A DNA stretch of 64,000 bases from an uncultured Actinomycetes bacterium (GCA_963697345.1 CAVONS010000001.1:15580-79579), one strand, 5' to 3'; positions 786 to 27,298 are shown, counted from the first letter of the stretch. A program made the numbers and translations. The notes: generated by a model from the letters alone, not told the origin.

Positions 786-2225
786 TCAGGCGTCGGACCC
801 CGGTGTTATCCAGGCGGAGAAGTCGGACGCTGTGTAGGTACGGCCCATCTTGCGGAGCTCGTCCCTGGCGGCGACATGGAGCAGGTCCATGGAGAGGACT
901 CCATCTCCCGCTGCGGCGAGGAAAGCGCCATTGACGGCGATGCTGCGGATCTGGCCGCCGGTAAATGGGGGCGTTGCGAGCGCTTCGAAGTCCAGCGAAT
1001 CGAGCCCTTCCAGGCCCTTGGCAGACGGATCGGCCCCGGCCCTGGGGAAGATGCCCTTCCAGATGCTCAGACGCTGCTCCGCGCCAGGGAACGGGAAAGT
1101 GACGATGAAGCGCAGTCGTCGGAGGAACGCGCTGTCCACCGCGCTCTTCCTGTTGGTGGTCAGGATCGCGAGGCCCGAATATGCCTCCATGCGCTGGAGC
1201 AGGTAGCTGACCTCGACGTTGGCGTACCGGACGTGGCTGTCTTGCACTTCGCTGCGCTTGCCGAAGATCGCGTCGGCCTCATCGAAGAGCAGCACGGCAC
1301 TGCTCTCCTCGGCGACGTCGAACACGCGCTTCAGATTCTTCTCAGTCTCACCGATGTACGTGCTGACCAAAGTGCCGAGGTCGATCCGATACAGATCGAG
1401 ATGCAGCTGTTTGGCAAGGGCCTGGGCGGCCATGGTCTTGCCGGTGCCGCTCTCGCCCACGAACAGGGCGGTGACTCCGAGGTAGCCCGGGAGCCGCTGG
1501 CGGAAGCCGTAGTTGTCGTAGACGGTGTCGCGGAGGAGCACCTGGTCGCGTATCTGGACCAGGATGCACTTCTGGTCGTCGGGGAGTTGGACGTCGTCAA
1601 GCCAAGTCTCCCGAACTAGTCGCTGCTCGACTACCGGCGAACTGATCGGCAGCTCGTCAACGTCCCTAGCCTGCACAGGTGACGCGCGCGTGGTGGGCTC
1701 GGAATCGATCAGCACGACGCCGGCCTTGTAGCCCACTGAGAGCTGGAGTGGACCCTGCACGAGGACGGACCAGATCTTGGAGAGCTCCTCCAGACTGAGT
1801 GACGACATGGTGAGACGCACCTGCGCGACTTCGTCCTTCAAGCCGGAGTCGGCCCGAAAGCGCTCAACGCCCGCAACCTCGACCTCCGCGCTGCGGAGCA
1901 CCGGTGAGGTGTGCAGCGAGGTGACCGCCAGATCGAGCATGCGCTGTGGGACGAGGTCGTCTTCATCGCCGGTGAAGCTGAGCAGATAGTGAAGGTCTAG
2001 CGTCGCCGCGGGCCCGTCATCCGAGTCCTTCTGTGGCCGGTTGCGCAGTTGCGGGCCTTCTGAGACGCGGTAGAGGTAGATGGATACCTGGCTCTGCGAC
2101 TGGCCGTCATTCACCTCTGGTCGCCGAGCCACGACTTGCACGGCTGGGAAGTCTGTGCAGATTGCCTCAGTCAGCCGTCGGCGCAGGCCCTCTGTAACGA
2201 CGGCAATAGCACTCTGGCTGGCCAC
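786..2225 (-). CDS. DUF4255 (Pvc16/Afp16 N-domain)-AAA+ ATPase fusion (Afp15/Pvc15-like ATPase module)
   Basis: N-terminal region: AIAVVTEGLRRRL...VSIYLYRV...LDLHYLLSF (DUF4255-like). C-terminal region: Walker A GESGTGKT, Walker B LLFDEAD, and DSHVRYANVEVSYLLQRME...ILTTN...AFLRRL, typical of CIS-associated AAA+ proteins. Start set at GTG 2225 behind an AAGGGAGGGG SD; GTG 2228 and ATG 2291 are alternatives. Confidence 0.88.
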   Translation of the reverse strand: MASQSAIAVVTEGLRRRLTEAICTDFPAVQVVARRPEVNDGQSQSQVSIYLYRVSEGPQLRNRPQKDSDDGPAATLDLHYLLSFTGDEDDLVPQRMLDLAVTSLHTSPVLRSAEVEVAGVERFRADSGLKDEVAQVRLTMSSLSLEELSKIWSVLVQGPLQLSVGYKAGVVLIDSEPTTRASPVQARDVDELPISSPVVEQRLVRETWLDDVQLPDDQKCILVQIRDQVLLRDTVYDNYGFRQRLPGYLGVTALFVGESGTGKTMAAQALAKQLHLDLYRIDLGTLVSTYIGETEKNLKRVFDVAEESSAVLLFDEADAIFGKRSEVQDSHVRYANVEVSYLLQRMEAYSGLAILTTNRKSAVDSAFLRRLRFIVTFPFPGAEQRLSIWKGIFPRAGADPSAKGLEGLDSLDFEALATPPFTGGQIRSIAVNGAFLAAAGDGVLSMDLLHVAARDELRKMGRTYTASDFSAWITPGSDA

Positions 2226-2500
2226 CACCGCCCCTCCCTTGCGCCGACGCAGGTTATCGGTGAGCGGTAGGACCGCCGGATTCCAGAACATGGTAGGCCA
2301 CTCAGGTACGCCACCCGGTGGTGAGCGACATCTCTGGCCGCACGGCCGCCGTGGATGCCGCACGTGTTACCGCCTGATGCGCTGGCGGTAGCCTTCGGTG
2401 TCGCGTTGCGCCTGGGCGGCGCCGTCGATGCTGCGGGGCTGGCCGGGATGTCCTGGTGGTCCGAGCCTCCCTCCGCCTGCCCTGCGCCGCCGGACCGGAA

Positions 2501-25600: not shown

Positions 25601-27298
25601 GCACTGGCGCCCCTGCGGTTCGTGCTCGAAGGCGGCCCGGAGCTGGCGGCCCGGGTGGACGGCGACGCTGTGCATTTCGCGGTGCCGCCCGGCGAGCAGC
25701 TGCGGATGCGGCTGTCCTCCGCACTGGATCGCGCATCCCTGGACCTGATCGGGCTCTGGCGCTCGCTGCCCGCGGCCCTGCGCACCAACGACCTGCTGGC
25801 CGAGGCTGCCGCCGACGGATGGCTGTGGTGGCTGACGCCGGCGACCGAGGTCCGCTTGGTGCACGCGGTGCCCCGGCCGGTGGAGGTGCCGCGCCCGACC
25901 GTGCTGGTGCCTATCCGCACGCCCGGGGACACTGCGGTGACCCTGTTCGGCGGCGTGGACCTGCACGGCCCGAGCACGGAGCGCCTCGACGTGGAGGCTG
26001 CGTGGAGTGAGTGGGTCGATGACCCGACCAAGCCGGAGCCGACGCGACGCGACGTGGTGGCGGCGGCCGCGGACACGACCGTCCGGTACGAGGAGGACCT
26101 GGTCGTGCTCGGCGGCGTCGACAACGACCTGCCGCTGCCCGACGGAAGCGTCATGCATCTGCACAAGTGCGTGCACCAGCTCGGCGACACCCGCCACCGC
26201 AGCATCGACTACCGGATGCGGGCCACCACGCGCTATCGCGAGTACTTCGACCCACGGGTGCTGCCCAGCGTGGACGACGTGTCCGTGCTCGGGCCCAGCC
26301 GCACTCTGGACGTGCCCAGCACGGCCCGCCCCGCCAAGCCCGTCATCGCCGACGTCCTGCCGCTGTTCCGGTGGTACGAGCACACCGAGCCCGAGCAGCC
26401 ATTCGCGCTGCGTCGGGAACGCCGGGCCGGGCTGCGCATCTACCTCGAGCGGCCGTGGTACTCCTCCGGGGACGGCGAGCTGTTGGCGGTGGTCCTGGCG
26501 GCGGGCAACGCGCTGGCCGAGGACCACGTCAGCCAATGGGGTGGCGATCCGGTGTTCCTGCAGCAGGGCCCGGCGAACCGCTCGGTCCTCCCGCTGGTCG
26601 ACATCGCGCACCTCGTGGGCCTCGACGACCGGGCCGAGGGTGGTCGGCCAGTCGGCCCACCGGTGTCGCGGACCCTGACCGACGTGCCCGGCCAGCCCGC
26701 GGTCTGGGCGCTCGGGTACCGCCCGGAGTACTCGGTGGCGCGGGGCCAGTGGTTCGTCGACGTGGCACTGGACCCGGGGACGGCGTTCGCCCCGTTCGTG
26801 CGGCTGGCCGTGGCTCGCTACCAGCCCAGCTCGTTGCCCGGGCTGCACCTGTCGCCGGTGGTGCGCTGCGACTTCGTGCCGCTGCCGCTGGAGCGGACGG
26901 CCTCGCTGTCCCGACCCGATGCGCAGACCACGCGCGTGAAGGTGACCGGTCCGGTCGGGGTGCCCGGTGGACTGGTCCACGCCGTGCACGGTGCGAACTT
27001 CGCGCAGATGTTCGCCGCGTCGCGACGGATGCGGGCGCGGCTGGAGACCCGGGTGCCGGAGGTTCCCTCCGATCTCGGCTGGCGCACCGTGGCGGCCGTC
27101 GACCTGCCCGTTCTCGGGTTCGAGGGGACGGTCGTGACCTGGTCGGGGAGCCTGGACCTGCCCGAGGAGCTGCCCCCGCGCAGGCCGGGGGACGATGAGG
27201 CGTGGCGGGTCGTGCTCGAGGAATGGGAGACACTGCCCGCCGACGGACCGGAGGGAACCTCGACACGGCTGGTGTACGCCGACGTGCTGCCGCTGTGA
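22670..27298 (+). CDS. Giant hypothetical protein 2 (1542 aa), translationally coupled to giant protein 1
   Basis: ATG 22670 is 3 nt after the upstream TGA, with AGGAGCG upstream. Normal amino-acid composition and high GC3, unlike the Arg/Gly/Pro/His-rich 1533-aa antisense ORF. Signature stretch LPRLRYGRSYALRAWAVDLAGNS. No domain recognised. Confidence 0.85.
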   Translation: MATESFLVTALPHSADPARDVHLSLFVTHRLTPDGPSGVVGDFPTVSAWTAELADARIRLLGRTAGGGLVRIPVTAELGVTEPGLWPAVFPADLAVRPWATPDLTAAPWRTFPAHRMQQHAALVHAAAMFSSPVTPPSVRGNALTAPLLKAIGYGEFQRRLGVETLLRMAPDLDARATERLDALSGGGLVGQGLGTAGNLTGAGLDPLSLLAADVHRARRYYQRPEDETPHQDRPTPGATGVPLAKPDPDFHARAAMLGDLSPLLRRLGLVIDLRIDDLGALDGVVAVQALLRLPRLDNPVAEQPWTACAVAGVTFSATSASGDYLGPLLRLGDEQRFRVLDLDPDASGLKLEAYMRTLPRLMATETNGDPANSAPPTLRATGLAVARVDRAADLKKRLTGAPARDTALLAGTAGDLHLEDVARGVRLEVWDDVSRAWHSLHRRLIDVEVDGAGQVLDDTPDVGFLQGAALTRSDGPDGGVPGAPYHAHEVLAGWDGWSLAAPRPGKLIVHEDGQEVLKDAPEPDPDPVNPVSTTSRVEPGTLPRLRYGRSYALRAWAVDLAGNSAPHQVVGPAVPRSGPGPATGRIDPDAREDLDPRLHAVAQRIAAARLAALPLDATTRTDQPEATVGLGAVRDQIRILRPVVQPGPQEGHGAAGLDLSEFRPTGVELVDLLVRQRMVQRGERARLVAVNRRGQIEALFGESAATLPRLLERTDAQTPDTSYADALVSSVRAGGRISASAAAALLSAAADLITTPRPFLRWDPVIEPALVPRHAYTEAESLTTLVVRSGVQGPAEDGLTLTILAPDEFSTQAVAEHPELPLAWRADSQRHVAPPKTSQYDAELHGMFDAAMGSGDPAAVSAALAVALRESGTFLDPTVADPVTPGARLPQPGIAFHASPTAEVPAAATPADLPRGEPLTPGQYVVHDVDDLVLPYLPDPLATGLSLVFPDAGTGHHLTGLLAIEGVTLRYSGTWPALAPLRFVLEGGPELAARVDGDAVHFAVPPGEQLRMRLSSALDRASLDLIGLWRSLPAALRTNDLLAEAAADGWLWWLTPATEVRLVHAVPRPVEVPRPTVLVPIRTPGDTAVTLFGGVDLHGPSTERLDVEAAWSEWVDDPTKPEPTRRDVVAAAADTTVRYEEDLVVLGGVDNDLPLPDGSVMHLHKCVHQLGDTRHRSIDYRMRATTRYREYFDPRVLPSVDDVSVLGPSRTLDVPSTARPAKPVIADVLPLFRWYEHTEPEQPFALRRERRAGLRIYLERPWYSSGDGELLAVVLAAGNALAEDHVSQWGGDPVFLQQGPANRSVLPLVDIAHLVGLDDRAEGGRPVGPPVSRTLTDVPGQPAVWALGYRPEYSVARGQWFVDVALDPGTAFAPFVRLAVARYQPSSLPGLHLSPVVRCDFVPLPLERTASLSRPDAQTTRVKVTGPVGVPGGLVHAVHGANFAQMFAASRRMRARLETRVPEVPSDLGWRTVAAVDLPVLGFEGTVVTWSGSLDLPEELPPRRPGDDEAWRVVLEEWETLPADGPEGTSTRLVYADVLPL

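What the first reader, a model, noticed from the sequence alone, without database searches (positions are those of the whole stretch)
786..27298. tRNA-fMet island: a partial contractile-injection toolkit wired to hydrolases instead of a tail
Inside the att repeats, the recognisable genes fall into two groups.
- (a) Two CIS hallmark parts: a tail-sheath homologue (13075-14658) and a DUF4255(Afp16/Pvc16 N-domain)-AAA+(Afp15/Pvc15-like) fusion (786-2225).
- (b) Degradative enzymes lacking signal peptides: S41, S8 and astacin peptidases, a DUF900-like alpha/beta hydrolase, a patatin-like phospholipase and an MBL-fold hydrolase.
The island also encodes an ATP-grasp enzyme, membrane proteins and two giant domain-less proteins.
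Reading all six frames by eye, I see no tube (gp19/Hcp-like), VgrG/spike, PAAR, gp25, baseplate-J/gp6-7, LysM tube initiator or tape-measure gene. The sheath and the ATPase lie 11 kb apart in different operons.
Canonical eCIS/PVC/Afp and Streptomyces cytoplasmic CIS loci keep these parts together in one ~15-20-gene cluster.
This arrangement is either a new sheath/ATPase-dependent effector or cell-death system, or the wreck of an eCIS.
Basis: partly seen in the sequence, partly recalled or inferred. Interest (0 to 1): 0.85.

Follow-up and report, generated by a model that had tools for sequence, protein, structure and literature searches.

The report
Leftover injection-system genes among hydrolases
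A 27-kb island next to a tRNA gene in a soil actinobacterium carries only two surviving genes of a phage-tail-like injection machine, set among independent hydrolase gene modules, so it is most likely the eroded remains of such a machine rather than a new tube-less weapon.

Summary
Between 112-nt direct repeats (426-537 and 27638-27749, the 3' half of tRNA-fMet) lie an intact CIS sheath gene, a Pvc16_N-AAA+ fusion, six hydrolases, an ATP-grasp enzyme, membrane proteins and two giant proteins. No tube, spike, baseplate or integrase gene was found.

The claim that the CIS parts are "wired to hydrolases" is not supported. The S8-hydrolase pair and the giant pair are autonomous, widespread modules found elsewhere without any CIS part.

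The sheath belongs to a rare clade of about eight sequences. Five related contigs carry a full-length copy with no CIS cluster, usually as the last gene of a hydrolase operon. Related contigs also carry CIS debris:
- a frameshifted tube gene
- an AAA fragment
- sheath stumps
- a lone spike ORF

The cap-ATPase fusion is a deletion between two neighbouring CIS genes, and a similar fusion arose independently in an unrelated organism.

Sheath and fusion are still under significant but relaxed purifying selection. They differ at many positions that are nearly invariant in canonical homologues.

Best reading: an eroded CIS cluster in a mosaic accessory island, with two survivors of uncertain present role. 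Whether a complete CIS exists elsewhere in this genome could not be checked. Interest is moderate.

The parts
426..537 (.). Left copy of the att-like direct repeat (tRNA 3' half plus downstream hairpin). It overlaps a degenerate tRNA-like sequence at 487-564(-).
   Evidence: 112 nt, 98% identical to 27638-27749. ARAGORN calls a tRNA-Met, but Rfam gives only 35.2 bits.
786..2291 (-). Pvc16_N (cap N-domain) fused to the C-terminal AAA+ module of an Afp15-like ATPase.
   Evidence: Pfam Pvc16_N 2e-35 and AAA 5e-26. It aligns to Pvc16 residues 1-230 plus AAA residues 404-676 of canonical neighbouring genes. Only 4 proteins with this architecture appear among the listed hits. Walker A, Walker B and arginine-finger motifs are visible in the sequence. 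dN/dS is 0.42, significantly below 1. It deviates at 8 of 107 canonical near-invariant positions.
2501..3727 (-). Serine alpha/beta hydrolase (GHSFGG motif), the second gene of the autonomous S8-hydrolase pair.
   Evidence: S8 lies directly upstream in 70 of 80 metagenome loci, none of which has a CIS part. The pair also occurs on Rhodococcus plasmid pRB98.
3747..5366 (-). S8 subtilase, the first gene of the pair.
   Evidence: Pfam 1e-44. PADLOC model 'subtilase' 7e-54.
5577..7535 (-). S41 peptidase.
   Evidence: Pfam 6e-15. It is 90% identical in L005 and 81% in L002. Plasmid homologues sit in other hydrolase operons.
7550..7984 (-). Chimeric remnant ORF (UDG-like N-terminus joined to the C-terminus of the ORF that precedes S41 in L005).
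8192..10851 (-). Astacin, MvdD-type ATP-grasp and YscW-like trio.
   Evidence: Pfam. The trio is conserved as a block at 86-93% amino-acid identity in L002.
11405..13000 (+). 531-aa multi-pass membrane protein, convergent with the sheath gene.
   Evidence: No family hit. TM segments found. A 63% homologue lies convergent to the fusion gene in L087.
13075..14658 (-). Intact orphan CIS tail-sheath gene, the last gene of the string u146, u228, MBL, patatin, sheath.
   Evidence: Pfam. Full-length match to the Streptomyces CIS sheath 8bky at 1e-60. AF2 model with pLDDT 80 matches CIS sheaths with probability 1.0. Member of a monophyletic orphan clade. dN/dS is 0.29-0.46. It deviates at 19 of 177 canonical near-invariant positions.
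14675..18495 (-). Patatin-like phospholipase (14675-16210), MBL-fold hydrolase (16220-17374), unknown 228-aa ORF (17376-18062) and a 146-aa membrane-anchored protein (18055-18495).
   Evidence: Pfam. In L002 the block reads u228, MBL, patatin fragment, tube. A promoter-like site lies at 18560-18531.
18749..27302 (+). Autonomous pair of giant proteins (1266 and 1542 aa), unrelated to CIS.
   Evidence: It is 95% nt identical to L086, where it sits among housekeeping genes. Both families are widespread. There is no structural match for giant1 and no PDB sequence match for either giant.
27638..27775 (-). Right repeat copy and the genuine tRNA-fMet (27699-27775).

Best explanation
This is a mosaic accessory island at a tRNA-fMet gene. 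It has no integrase of its own. It combines several independent gene modules with two survivors of an eroded actinobacterial contractile-injection-system (CIS) cluster.

The independent modules are the S8 plus alpha/beta-hydrolase pair, the astacin/ATP-grasp/YscW trio, S41, MBL plus patatin, and a pair of giant proteins. The two survivors are a full-length sheath gene and a hybrid gene. The hybrid was made by an in-frame deletion that joined the N-domain of the cap protein (Pvc16/Afp16) to the C-terminal AAA+ module of the neighbouring ATPase (Pvc15/Afp15).

Shown: the island cannot by itself build a tube, spike or baseplate, so it cannot inject anything. The hydrolase and giant modules occur and persist without CIS parts.

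Inferred: the hydrolases act on their own (or once neighboured a CIS) rather than through the sheath. The sheath and fusion have lost most canonical partners, which explains their faster evolution. Residual purifying selection means they still do something. The most probable role is as spare or variant subunits for a CIS encoded elsewhere. A self-assembling sheath polymer is a less likely alternative.
For: 1. Only the sheath, Pvc16_N and AAA are detectable in six frames of 64 kb. The rest of the window is core actinobacterial chromosome.

2. The modules are autonomous:
- S8 lies directly upstream of the hydrolase in 70 of 80 metagenome loci, with no sheath, fusion, S41 or patatin and no third conserved neighbour. 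The pair also occurs on a Rhodococcus plasmid.
- The giant pair is 95% nt identical in a different, housekeeping context.
- The fusion occurs alone in L087 and L088.

3. Relatives carry CIS debris:
- L002 has a tube gene with one frameshift, beside a truncated patatin gene and an IS110.
- L001 has an AAA fragment right after the sheath.
- L174 reads S8, hydrolase, then only a 110-aa sheath stump, plus a lone 143-aa Phage_base_V ORF.

4. Origin of the fusion:
- In canonical loci the Pvc16 gene directly precedes the AAA gene.
- The window-type junction (Pvc16 1-230 plus AAA 404-676) is shared by three sequences.
- L171, from an unrelated 52% GC organism, has a sheath stump followed by a fusion with a different junction.

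5. Relaxed constraint:
- Orphan sheaths differ at 15-37 of 177 positions that are at least 95% conserved in 109 canonical sheaths. The canonical median is 2, and the changes are mostly lineage-specific scatter.
- The fusion differs at 5-11 of 107 such positions, against a canonical maximum of 4.
- The closest orphan pair has dN/dS 0.40, against 0.07-0.10 for canonical pairs of similar amino-acid identity.

6. The island's hydrolases are absent from 81 canonical CIS loci within 10 kb either side of the sheath. Genes upstream of canonical sheaths are unrelated housekeeping or regulatory genes.
Against: - The sheath is intact and colinear with canonical sheaths in five separate contexts and folds as a sheath.
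- Purifying selection is significant even between the two closest orphans (p = 4e-5) and for the fusion (p = 4e-6). This does not fit a dead relic.
- In four of the five contexts the sheath is the last or next-to-last gene of a hydrolase operon, with different upstream partners (patatin, alpha/beta hydrolase, S41, amidohydrolase). In L001 it is translationally coupled to the upstream gene. This pattern is specific to the orphan clade and could reflect a functional link.
- All related contigs come from a few metagenome studies. Several appear to be long-read assemblies, so single frameshifts may be sequencing errors.
- Whether the genome has a complete CIS elsewhere is unknown.
Confidence: 0.55

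Rival explanations
1. Auxiliary module for a complete CIS encoded elsewhere in the genome. The island would supply a variant sheath paralogue, a cap-ATPase and cargo-like hydrolases. This would be analogous to the orphan Hcp/VgrG-effector islands of type VI secretion.
For: - The sheath and fusion are intact and under purifying selection.
- The hydrolases lack signal-like N-termini, and several have long low-complexity N-terminal regions.
- Canonical CIS are common in related Actinomycetota; the AAA part is up to 72% identical to canonical ATPases.
- eCIS with several diverged sheath paralogues are known (Afp2-4 and Pvc2-4).
Against: - No second CIS gene is present in the 64 kb.
- The hydrolases are not found next to 81 canonical loci, and the S8-hydrolase pair works without any CIS nearby.
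- The sheath has changed at many canonical invariant positions, including the N-terminal linker.
- In known systems the orphan parts that travel with effectors are cargo carriers (tube or spike), not sheaths (established T6SS knowledge).
Confidence: 0.2
2. A new tube-less system. The orphan sheath polymerises on its own, like polysheaths. The cap-domain AAA+ fusion would remodel it in a ClpV-like manner. The structure would scaffold or gate the cytoplasmic hydrolases for regulated cell death or defence.
For: - The sheath sits recurrently at the 3' end of different hydrolase operons, a pattern specific to the clade.
- A few substitutions are shared across the clade: G18P, N254S, N385T, Q453A and G523A.
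- Purifying selection is significant.
- The ATPase motifs are intact.
Against: - The sheath and fusion are not linked to each other outside this window.
- The partner hydrolases differ from locus to locus and are autonomous elsewhere.
- Most substitutions at invariant positions are scattered rather than shared.
- Sheath stumps in L174 and L171 show the gene is dispensable.
- The clade is tiny, about 8 sequences among the hits in 5.8 billion proteins.
Confidence: 0.13
3. Neutral pseudogene-like debris. Both CIS-derived ORFs are non-functional and stay open only because stop codons are rare at 70% GC.
For: - The flanks are rearranged everywhere, with a chimeric ORF at 7550-7984.
- Fragments and frameshifts occur in relatives.
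- Substitution at invariant positions is accelerated.
Against: - dN/dS is significantly below 1.
- There are no frameshifts or internal stops across synonymous divergence of 0.13-1.0 in five sheath genes.
- A strong AGGAG lies 8 nt before the sheath ATG (read).
Confidence: 0.1

Closest known systems
Cytoplasmic/extracellular contractile injection systems of Actinomycetota (Streptomyces CIS, PDB 8bky/8bl4/9gtp) and Afp/PVC-type eCIS
   Same: The sheath is a full-length, colinear homologue (phmmer 1e-60 over residues 7-523; Foldseek probability 1.0). The fusion carries the Pvc16_N cap domain and an Afp15-type AAA+ module that is 54-72% identical to canonical ATPases.
   Different: No tube, tube initiator, spike, PAAR, gp25, baseplate J or tape-measure gene was found. 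The two parts lie 11 kb apart in different gene strings. Cap and ATPase are fused and both are truncated. The sheath has changed at 19 of 177 canonical near-invariant positions.
Orphan Hcp/VgrG/PAAR-effector islands of type VI secretion
   Same: A structural gene of a contractile machine sits away from any main cluster, next to degradative enzymes, on an accessory island.
   Different: Here the orphan is the sheath, which is not known to carry cargo. No immunity genes are evident. A main cluster has not been shown to exist.
ClpV acting on TssBC sheaths (T6SS)
   Same: An AAA+ ring is tethered to a domain that binds a sheath/tube assembly. This is an analogy for what the cap-domain-AAA+ fusion could do.
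   Different: The N-domains are not homologous. No evidence of disassembly activity exists, and the fusion is explained by a deletion between neighbouring genes.
IetAS anti-phage system (AAA ATPase plus S8 protease)
   Same: PADLOC IetA models hit the AAA module (3e-29) and IetS models hit the S8 (6e-16).
   Different: NCBIfam IteA scores 88 bits against a cutoff of 510. The two genes are not adjacent. The S8 is always paired with the alpha/beta hydrolase, not with an ATPase. The AAA module is far closer to CIS ATPases.
tRNA-integrated genomic islands
   Same: The island is flanked by direct repeats that duplicate the 3' part of a tRNA gene and has mosaic accessory content.
   Different: No integrase or excisionase is present, and GC content is barely different from the flank (0.70 against 0.715).

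Membership tests
Contractile injection system (eCIS/CIS) locus | Sheath protein with the Phage_sheath_1 and 1C fold | tested here: met
Contractile injection system (eCIS/CIS) locus | Inner tube protein (gp19/Hcp-like) | tested here: not met
   No Pfam or PHROG hit. The tube HMM built from 73 loci finds nothing in six frames. tblastn with a related tube gives E above 0.8.
Contractile injection system (eCIS/CIS) locus | Baseplate (gp25, baseplate J, gp6/7-like) and spike (VgrG/PAAR) | tested here: not met
   No Pfam, NCBIfam or PHROG hit for any island protein. The giant1 model has no baseplate or spike match. giant2 was tested by sequence only.
Contractile injection system (eCIS/CIS) locus | Separate cap (Afp16) and ATPase (Afp15) proteins of full length | tested here: not met
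   A single 479-501 aa hybrid consists of Pvc16 residues 1-230 plus AAA residues 404-676.
Contractile injection system (eCIS/CIS) locus | Parts contiguous in one cluster of about 15-20 genes | tested here: not met
   The two parts lie 10.8 kb apart in separate gene strings.
Contractile injection system (eCIS/CIS) locus | Complete cluster elsewhere in the same genome | not testable with these tools
   Only 64 kb of a 113-kb contig is available. Look-ups of the source contig returned no DNA.
tRNA-integrated genomic island | Direct repeats that duplicate the tRNA 3' end at both borders | tested here: met
   112 nt at 98% identity.
tRNA-integrated genomic island | Integrase gene at one border | tested here: not met
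   No Phage_integrase or recombinase hit in any island ORF.
IetAS defence system | IetA-type ATPase reaching the family cutoff and adjacent to IetS | tested here: not met
   88 bits against a cutoff of 510. The genes are not adjacent.
Graspetide (MvdD-type ATP-grasp) cluster | ATP-grasp ligase with the pre-ATP-grasp domain | tested here: met
   PF21068 at 6e-14.
Graspetide (MvdD-type ATP-grasp) cluster | Precursor peptide gene | not tested
   Not searched for.

The most novel reading that the evidence does not exclude
The orphan sheath clade is an exapted, tube-less sheath. It would polymerise on its own at the end of hydrolase operons, possibly remodelled by the cap-domain AAA+ fusion. It would then scaffold, sequester or release cytoplasmic lipases and proteases in a cell-death or defence response. 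That would be a new use of a contractile-tail protein.
Probability: 0.12. Interest if true: 0.85.

Novelty: new variant of a known kind. Interest (0 to 1): 0.4.

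Why it matters
The locus shows how contractile injection clusters fall apart. 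The first gene (the sheath) and a deletion hybrid of cap and ATPase can outlive the machine and remain under selection. Surveys that count CIS by sheath or ATPase hits would over-count such loci.

If the survivors prove to have a function of their own, it would be the first tube-less use of a tail sheath.

The work also exposes two widespread, uncharacterised modules that may deserve more attention than the CIS relics: the S8 plus alpha/beta-hydrolase pair, and the pair of giant proteins of about 1,270 and 1,540 aa.

Tried and rejected
- **Giants as baseplate or spike:** rejected. The pair stands alone in L086. There is no Pfam, PHROG or PDB sequence hit. The AF2 model of giant1 (pLDDT 69) has only trivial Foldseek matches, with query-normalised TM-score below 0.1. 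HMMs of both giants do not hit the large ORFs of L174.
- **Small ORFs as tube:** rejected. The 146-aa protein has an N-terminal TM anchor, and the 144-aa ORF is a chimeric remnant.
- **IetAS-like AAA plus S8 system:** rejected.
- **Hydrolases as regular neighbours of canonical CIS:** not found.
- **Orphan-type sheaths in GTDB species representatives, plasmids or IMG/VR:** none found above 55-57% identity.
- **A sheath 3' remnant upstream of the L002 tube gene:** none found.
- **Retrieving the rest of the 113-kb source contig:** failed.
- **Literature searches** for orphan sheaths, CIS remnants or a subtilase-hydrolase defence pair gave nothing relevant.
- **Technical note:** some apparent gene families in my clustering were off-frame shadow ORFs of GC-rich genes and were discarded.

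Full report
**1. What is in the sequence**

The window is about 70% GC. ARAGORN finds tRNA-Met(CAT) genes at 27699-27775(-) and 487-564(-). Rfam scores them 63.6 and 35.2 bits, so the left copy is a degenerate hybrid.

A direct repeat of 112 nt at 98% identity lies at 426-537 and 27638-27749. It covers the 3' half of the tRNA and the hairpin after it. The right tRNA has initiator features: a C1/U72 mismatch and a GGG:CCC anticodon stem, read directly from the sequence. No integrase is present between the repeats.

GC3-guided gene calling and Pfam give 16 tightly packed genes.
- A Pvc16_N-AAA fusion.
- An alpha/beta hydrolase (its DUF900 hit is weak).
- S8, S41 and astacin peptidases.
- A YscW-like protein.
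- An MvdD-type ATP-grasp enzyme.
- A 531-aa membrane protein.
- A sheath.
- Patatin-like and MBL-fold hydrolases.
- Two small unknown proteins.
- Two giant proteins with no domain.

The right half of the window is core actinobacterial chromosome (UPF0182, PDZ-Lon, zincin, UvrD2, NudC, AdnAB-like genes) and contains no CIS gene.

**2. Are other CIS parts hidden?**

Pfam, NCBIfam and PHROGs find nothing in the unknown proteins.

I built HMMs for the gene families shared by 81 canonical sheath loci: sheath, tube, a second family downstream of the tube, Pvc16, AAA, eCIS_core and others. I searched every six-frame ORF of at least 30 aa in the window. Only the sheath and the two halves of the fusion hit, plus off-frame shadows of those genes. 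These HMMs cover only genes within 10 kb of the sheath, so baseplate and spike absence rests on Pfam and PHROGs.

A related tube protein finds nothing by tblastn.

The giant proteins are not CIS parts:
- The 8.55-kb pair (18749-27302) is 95% nt identical to a contig where it sits between unrelated housekeeping genes.
- Both families are widespread and unannotated.
- An AF2 model of giant1 (pLDDT 69) has no meaningful PDB or viral match.

**3. The sheath**

The sheath is colinear over its full length with the Streptomyces CIS sheath (8bky and 8bl4, E about 1e-60). Its model (pLDDT 80) matches CIS sheaths with probability 1.0.

Thousands of homologues exist at 50-57% identity. Only about eight are closer (61-73%), and these form one clade. 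None occurs in GTDB species representatives, plasmids or IMG/VR.

Contexts of the orphan clade:

| Locus | Gene order |
|---|---|
| Window | u146, u228, MBL, patatin, sheath |
| L005 | S41, S8, alpha/beta hydrolase, sheath, patatin' |
| L002 | astacin, ATP-grasp, YscW, S41, sheath; separately u228, MBL, patatin fragment, tube, IS110 |
| L001 | S8, hydrolase, UDG; amidohydrolase, sheath (4-nt overlap); then an AAA fragment |
| L004 | S8 and hydrolase nearby; sheath |
| L174 | S8, hydrolase, 110-aa sheath stump; lone 143-aa Phage_base_V ORF |
| L003 (next relative, 57%) | ordinary eCIS cluster |

Genes upstream of canonical sheaths are unrelated. The island's hydrolases are absent from canonical loci.

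**4. The fusion**

Among the listed hits, only four proteins combine Pvc16_N with AAA.

The window type (the window, L087 and L088) shares one junction: Pvc16 residues 1-230 joined to AAA residues 404-676. In canonical loci these two genes are adjacent. Outside the window, this fusion has neither a sheath nor the hydrolase set nearby.

A fourth fusion occurs in an unrelated 52% GC organism. It has a different junction and follows a 200-aa sheath stump. Its AAA part shows 0 of 107 deviations from canonical invariants, so it is a very recent deletion product.

The architecture is therefore a recurrent by-product of deletions inside CIS clusters.

**5. The hydrolase modules**

Using the alpha/beta hydrolase as probe, 379 metagenome relatives were found. 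In the 80 best loci, S8 lies directly upstream in 70. The other ten begin within a few hundred bases of the probe gene, so what lies upstream could not be read. None has a sheath, fusion, S41 or patatin gene, and no third neighbour is conserved. The pair also sits on Rhodococcus plasmid pRB98.

S41 homologues on Variovorax and Mesorhizobium plasmids sit in operons of other large hydrolases, without CIS genes.

These modules do not need CIS parts.

**6. Selection**

| Gene set | NG86 dN/dS |
|---|---|
| Orphan sheaths | 0.29-0.46 |
| Fusion | 0.42 |
| Neighbouring hydrolases | 0.10-0.20 |
| Giants | 0.08-0.13 |

At about 90% amino-acid identity, canonical sheath pairs give 0.07-0.10, while the closest orphan pair gives 0.40.

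Non-synonymous changes are nevertheless significantly under-represented:
- p = 4e-5 for L001 against L004
- p = 8e-21 for the window against L005
- p = 4e-6 and 1e-8 for the fusion

Orphan sheaths differ at 15-37 of 177 positions that are at least 95% conserved in 109 canonical sheaths; the canonical median is 2. The changes are mostly scattered. A few are shared across the clade (G18P, N254S, N385T, Q453A, G523A), along with a one-residue deletion in the N-terminal linker. The fusion differs at 8 of 107 such positions, against a canonical maximum of 4.

Constraint is therefore relaxed but not lost.

**7. Interpretation**

The simplest account is a rearrangement-prone accessory region. CIS clusters that once lay beside hydrolase operons have been cut down by deletions. 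Different pieces survive in different relatives:
- sheath
- tube
- AAA fragment
- spike ORF
- cap-ATPase hybrid

In this window, the sheath and the hybrid survive at the 3' ends of two hydrolase gene strings. A chimeric ORF at 7550-7984 is another scar.

The island cannot assemble an injection device; this is shown. That the hydrolases act independently is inferred from their autonomy elsewhere.

Residual selection, and the repeated placement of the sheath behind different hydrolases, remain unexplained by pure decay. Two rivals therefore stay open: an auxiliary role for a CIS elsewhere, which I could not check, and a tube-less exapted sheath.

My probabilities: eroded cluster with survivors of uncertain role 0.55, auxiliary module 0.20, new tube-less system 0.13, neutral debris 0.10.

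**8. Caveats**

- All close relatives come from a handful of metagenome studies, and several appear to be long-read assemblies. Single frameshifts (L002 tube, L087 fusion, L174 S8-hydrolase) may be sequencing errors.
- NG86 is crude at 90% GC3.
The best named relatives of its proteins are Nanopelagicales, Nocardioidaceae and Geodermatophilaceae.

**9. Verdict**

The 'wreck' alternative is favoured, and the 'wired to hydrolases' idea is not supported. This is a new variant of a known kind, of moderate interest (0.4).

Noticed in passing
window 18749-27302 (giant1 18866-22666, giant2 22670-27298); L086 6080-14633: The two giant genes form a discrete 8.55-kb module. It is 95% nt identical in another genome, where the flanks are completely different housekeeping genes. 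Both protein families are very widespread (more than 700 hits across several phyla; 2314 clusters at 50% identity). Neither has a Pfam, PHROG or PDB sequence match, and the giant1 model has no structural match.
   Followed up: partly
window 2501-5366; L089-L168; L175 6192-9290: S8 subtilase followed by a roughly 410-aa serine alpha/beta hydrolase is a strict, autonomous two-gene module. It is common in soil metagenomes and present on Rhodococcus plasmids. The S8 hits a PADLOC model named 'subtilase' at 7e-54, and I could not identify which system that model belongs to.
   Followed up: partly
L174 1-9797: Beside an S8-hydrolase pair that is 90-93% identical to the window's lies an operon of four large ORFs (DUF6603 1079 aa, then 1104, 1433 and 537 aa). 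A divergent 143-aa Phage_base_V/Phage_spike ORF sits next to it. The large ORFs are not homologous to the window's giants.
   Followed up: partly
L171 3536-6194 (also L172, L173): An unrelated 52% GC organism carries a 200-aa sheath stump directly followed by an independently formed Pvc16-AAA fusion. The arrangement is seen on 8 contigs from several samples.
   Followed up: yes
window 11405-13000; L087 11479-12969: The 531-aa multi-pass membrane protein lies convergent to a CIS relic in two loci: to the sheath here and to the fusion in L087. It has no family assignment.
   Followed up: partly
window 8192-10851; L002 5118-7774: The astacin, MvdD-type ATP-grasp and YscW-like genes are conserved as a trio at 86-93% amino-acid identity. 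This may be a graspetide-like or protein-modifying module. No precursor peptide was looked for.
   Followed up: no
window 7550-7984: This is a chimeric ORF. Residues 9-59 resemble the N-terminus of a UDG-family gene that follows the hydrolase in L001 and L004. Residues 87-137 resemble the C-terminus of the ORF that precedes S41 in L005. It is a recombination scar.
   Followed up: yes
window 487-564: The left 'tRNA-Met' is a hybrid. Its 3' half is identical to the real tRNA-fMet and its 5' half is divergent but tRNA-like. It has an A/A mismatch in the anticodon stem and scores only 35 bits in Rfam.
   Followed up: yes
window 35026-56145: This stretch shows conserved actinobacterial core synteny: UPF0182, PDZ-Lon-like protease, zincin, ABC1 kinase, UvrD2 with HRDC, NudC and AdnAB-like helicase-nucleases. 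It marks the flank as ordinary chromosome.
   Followed up: partly
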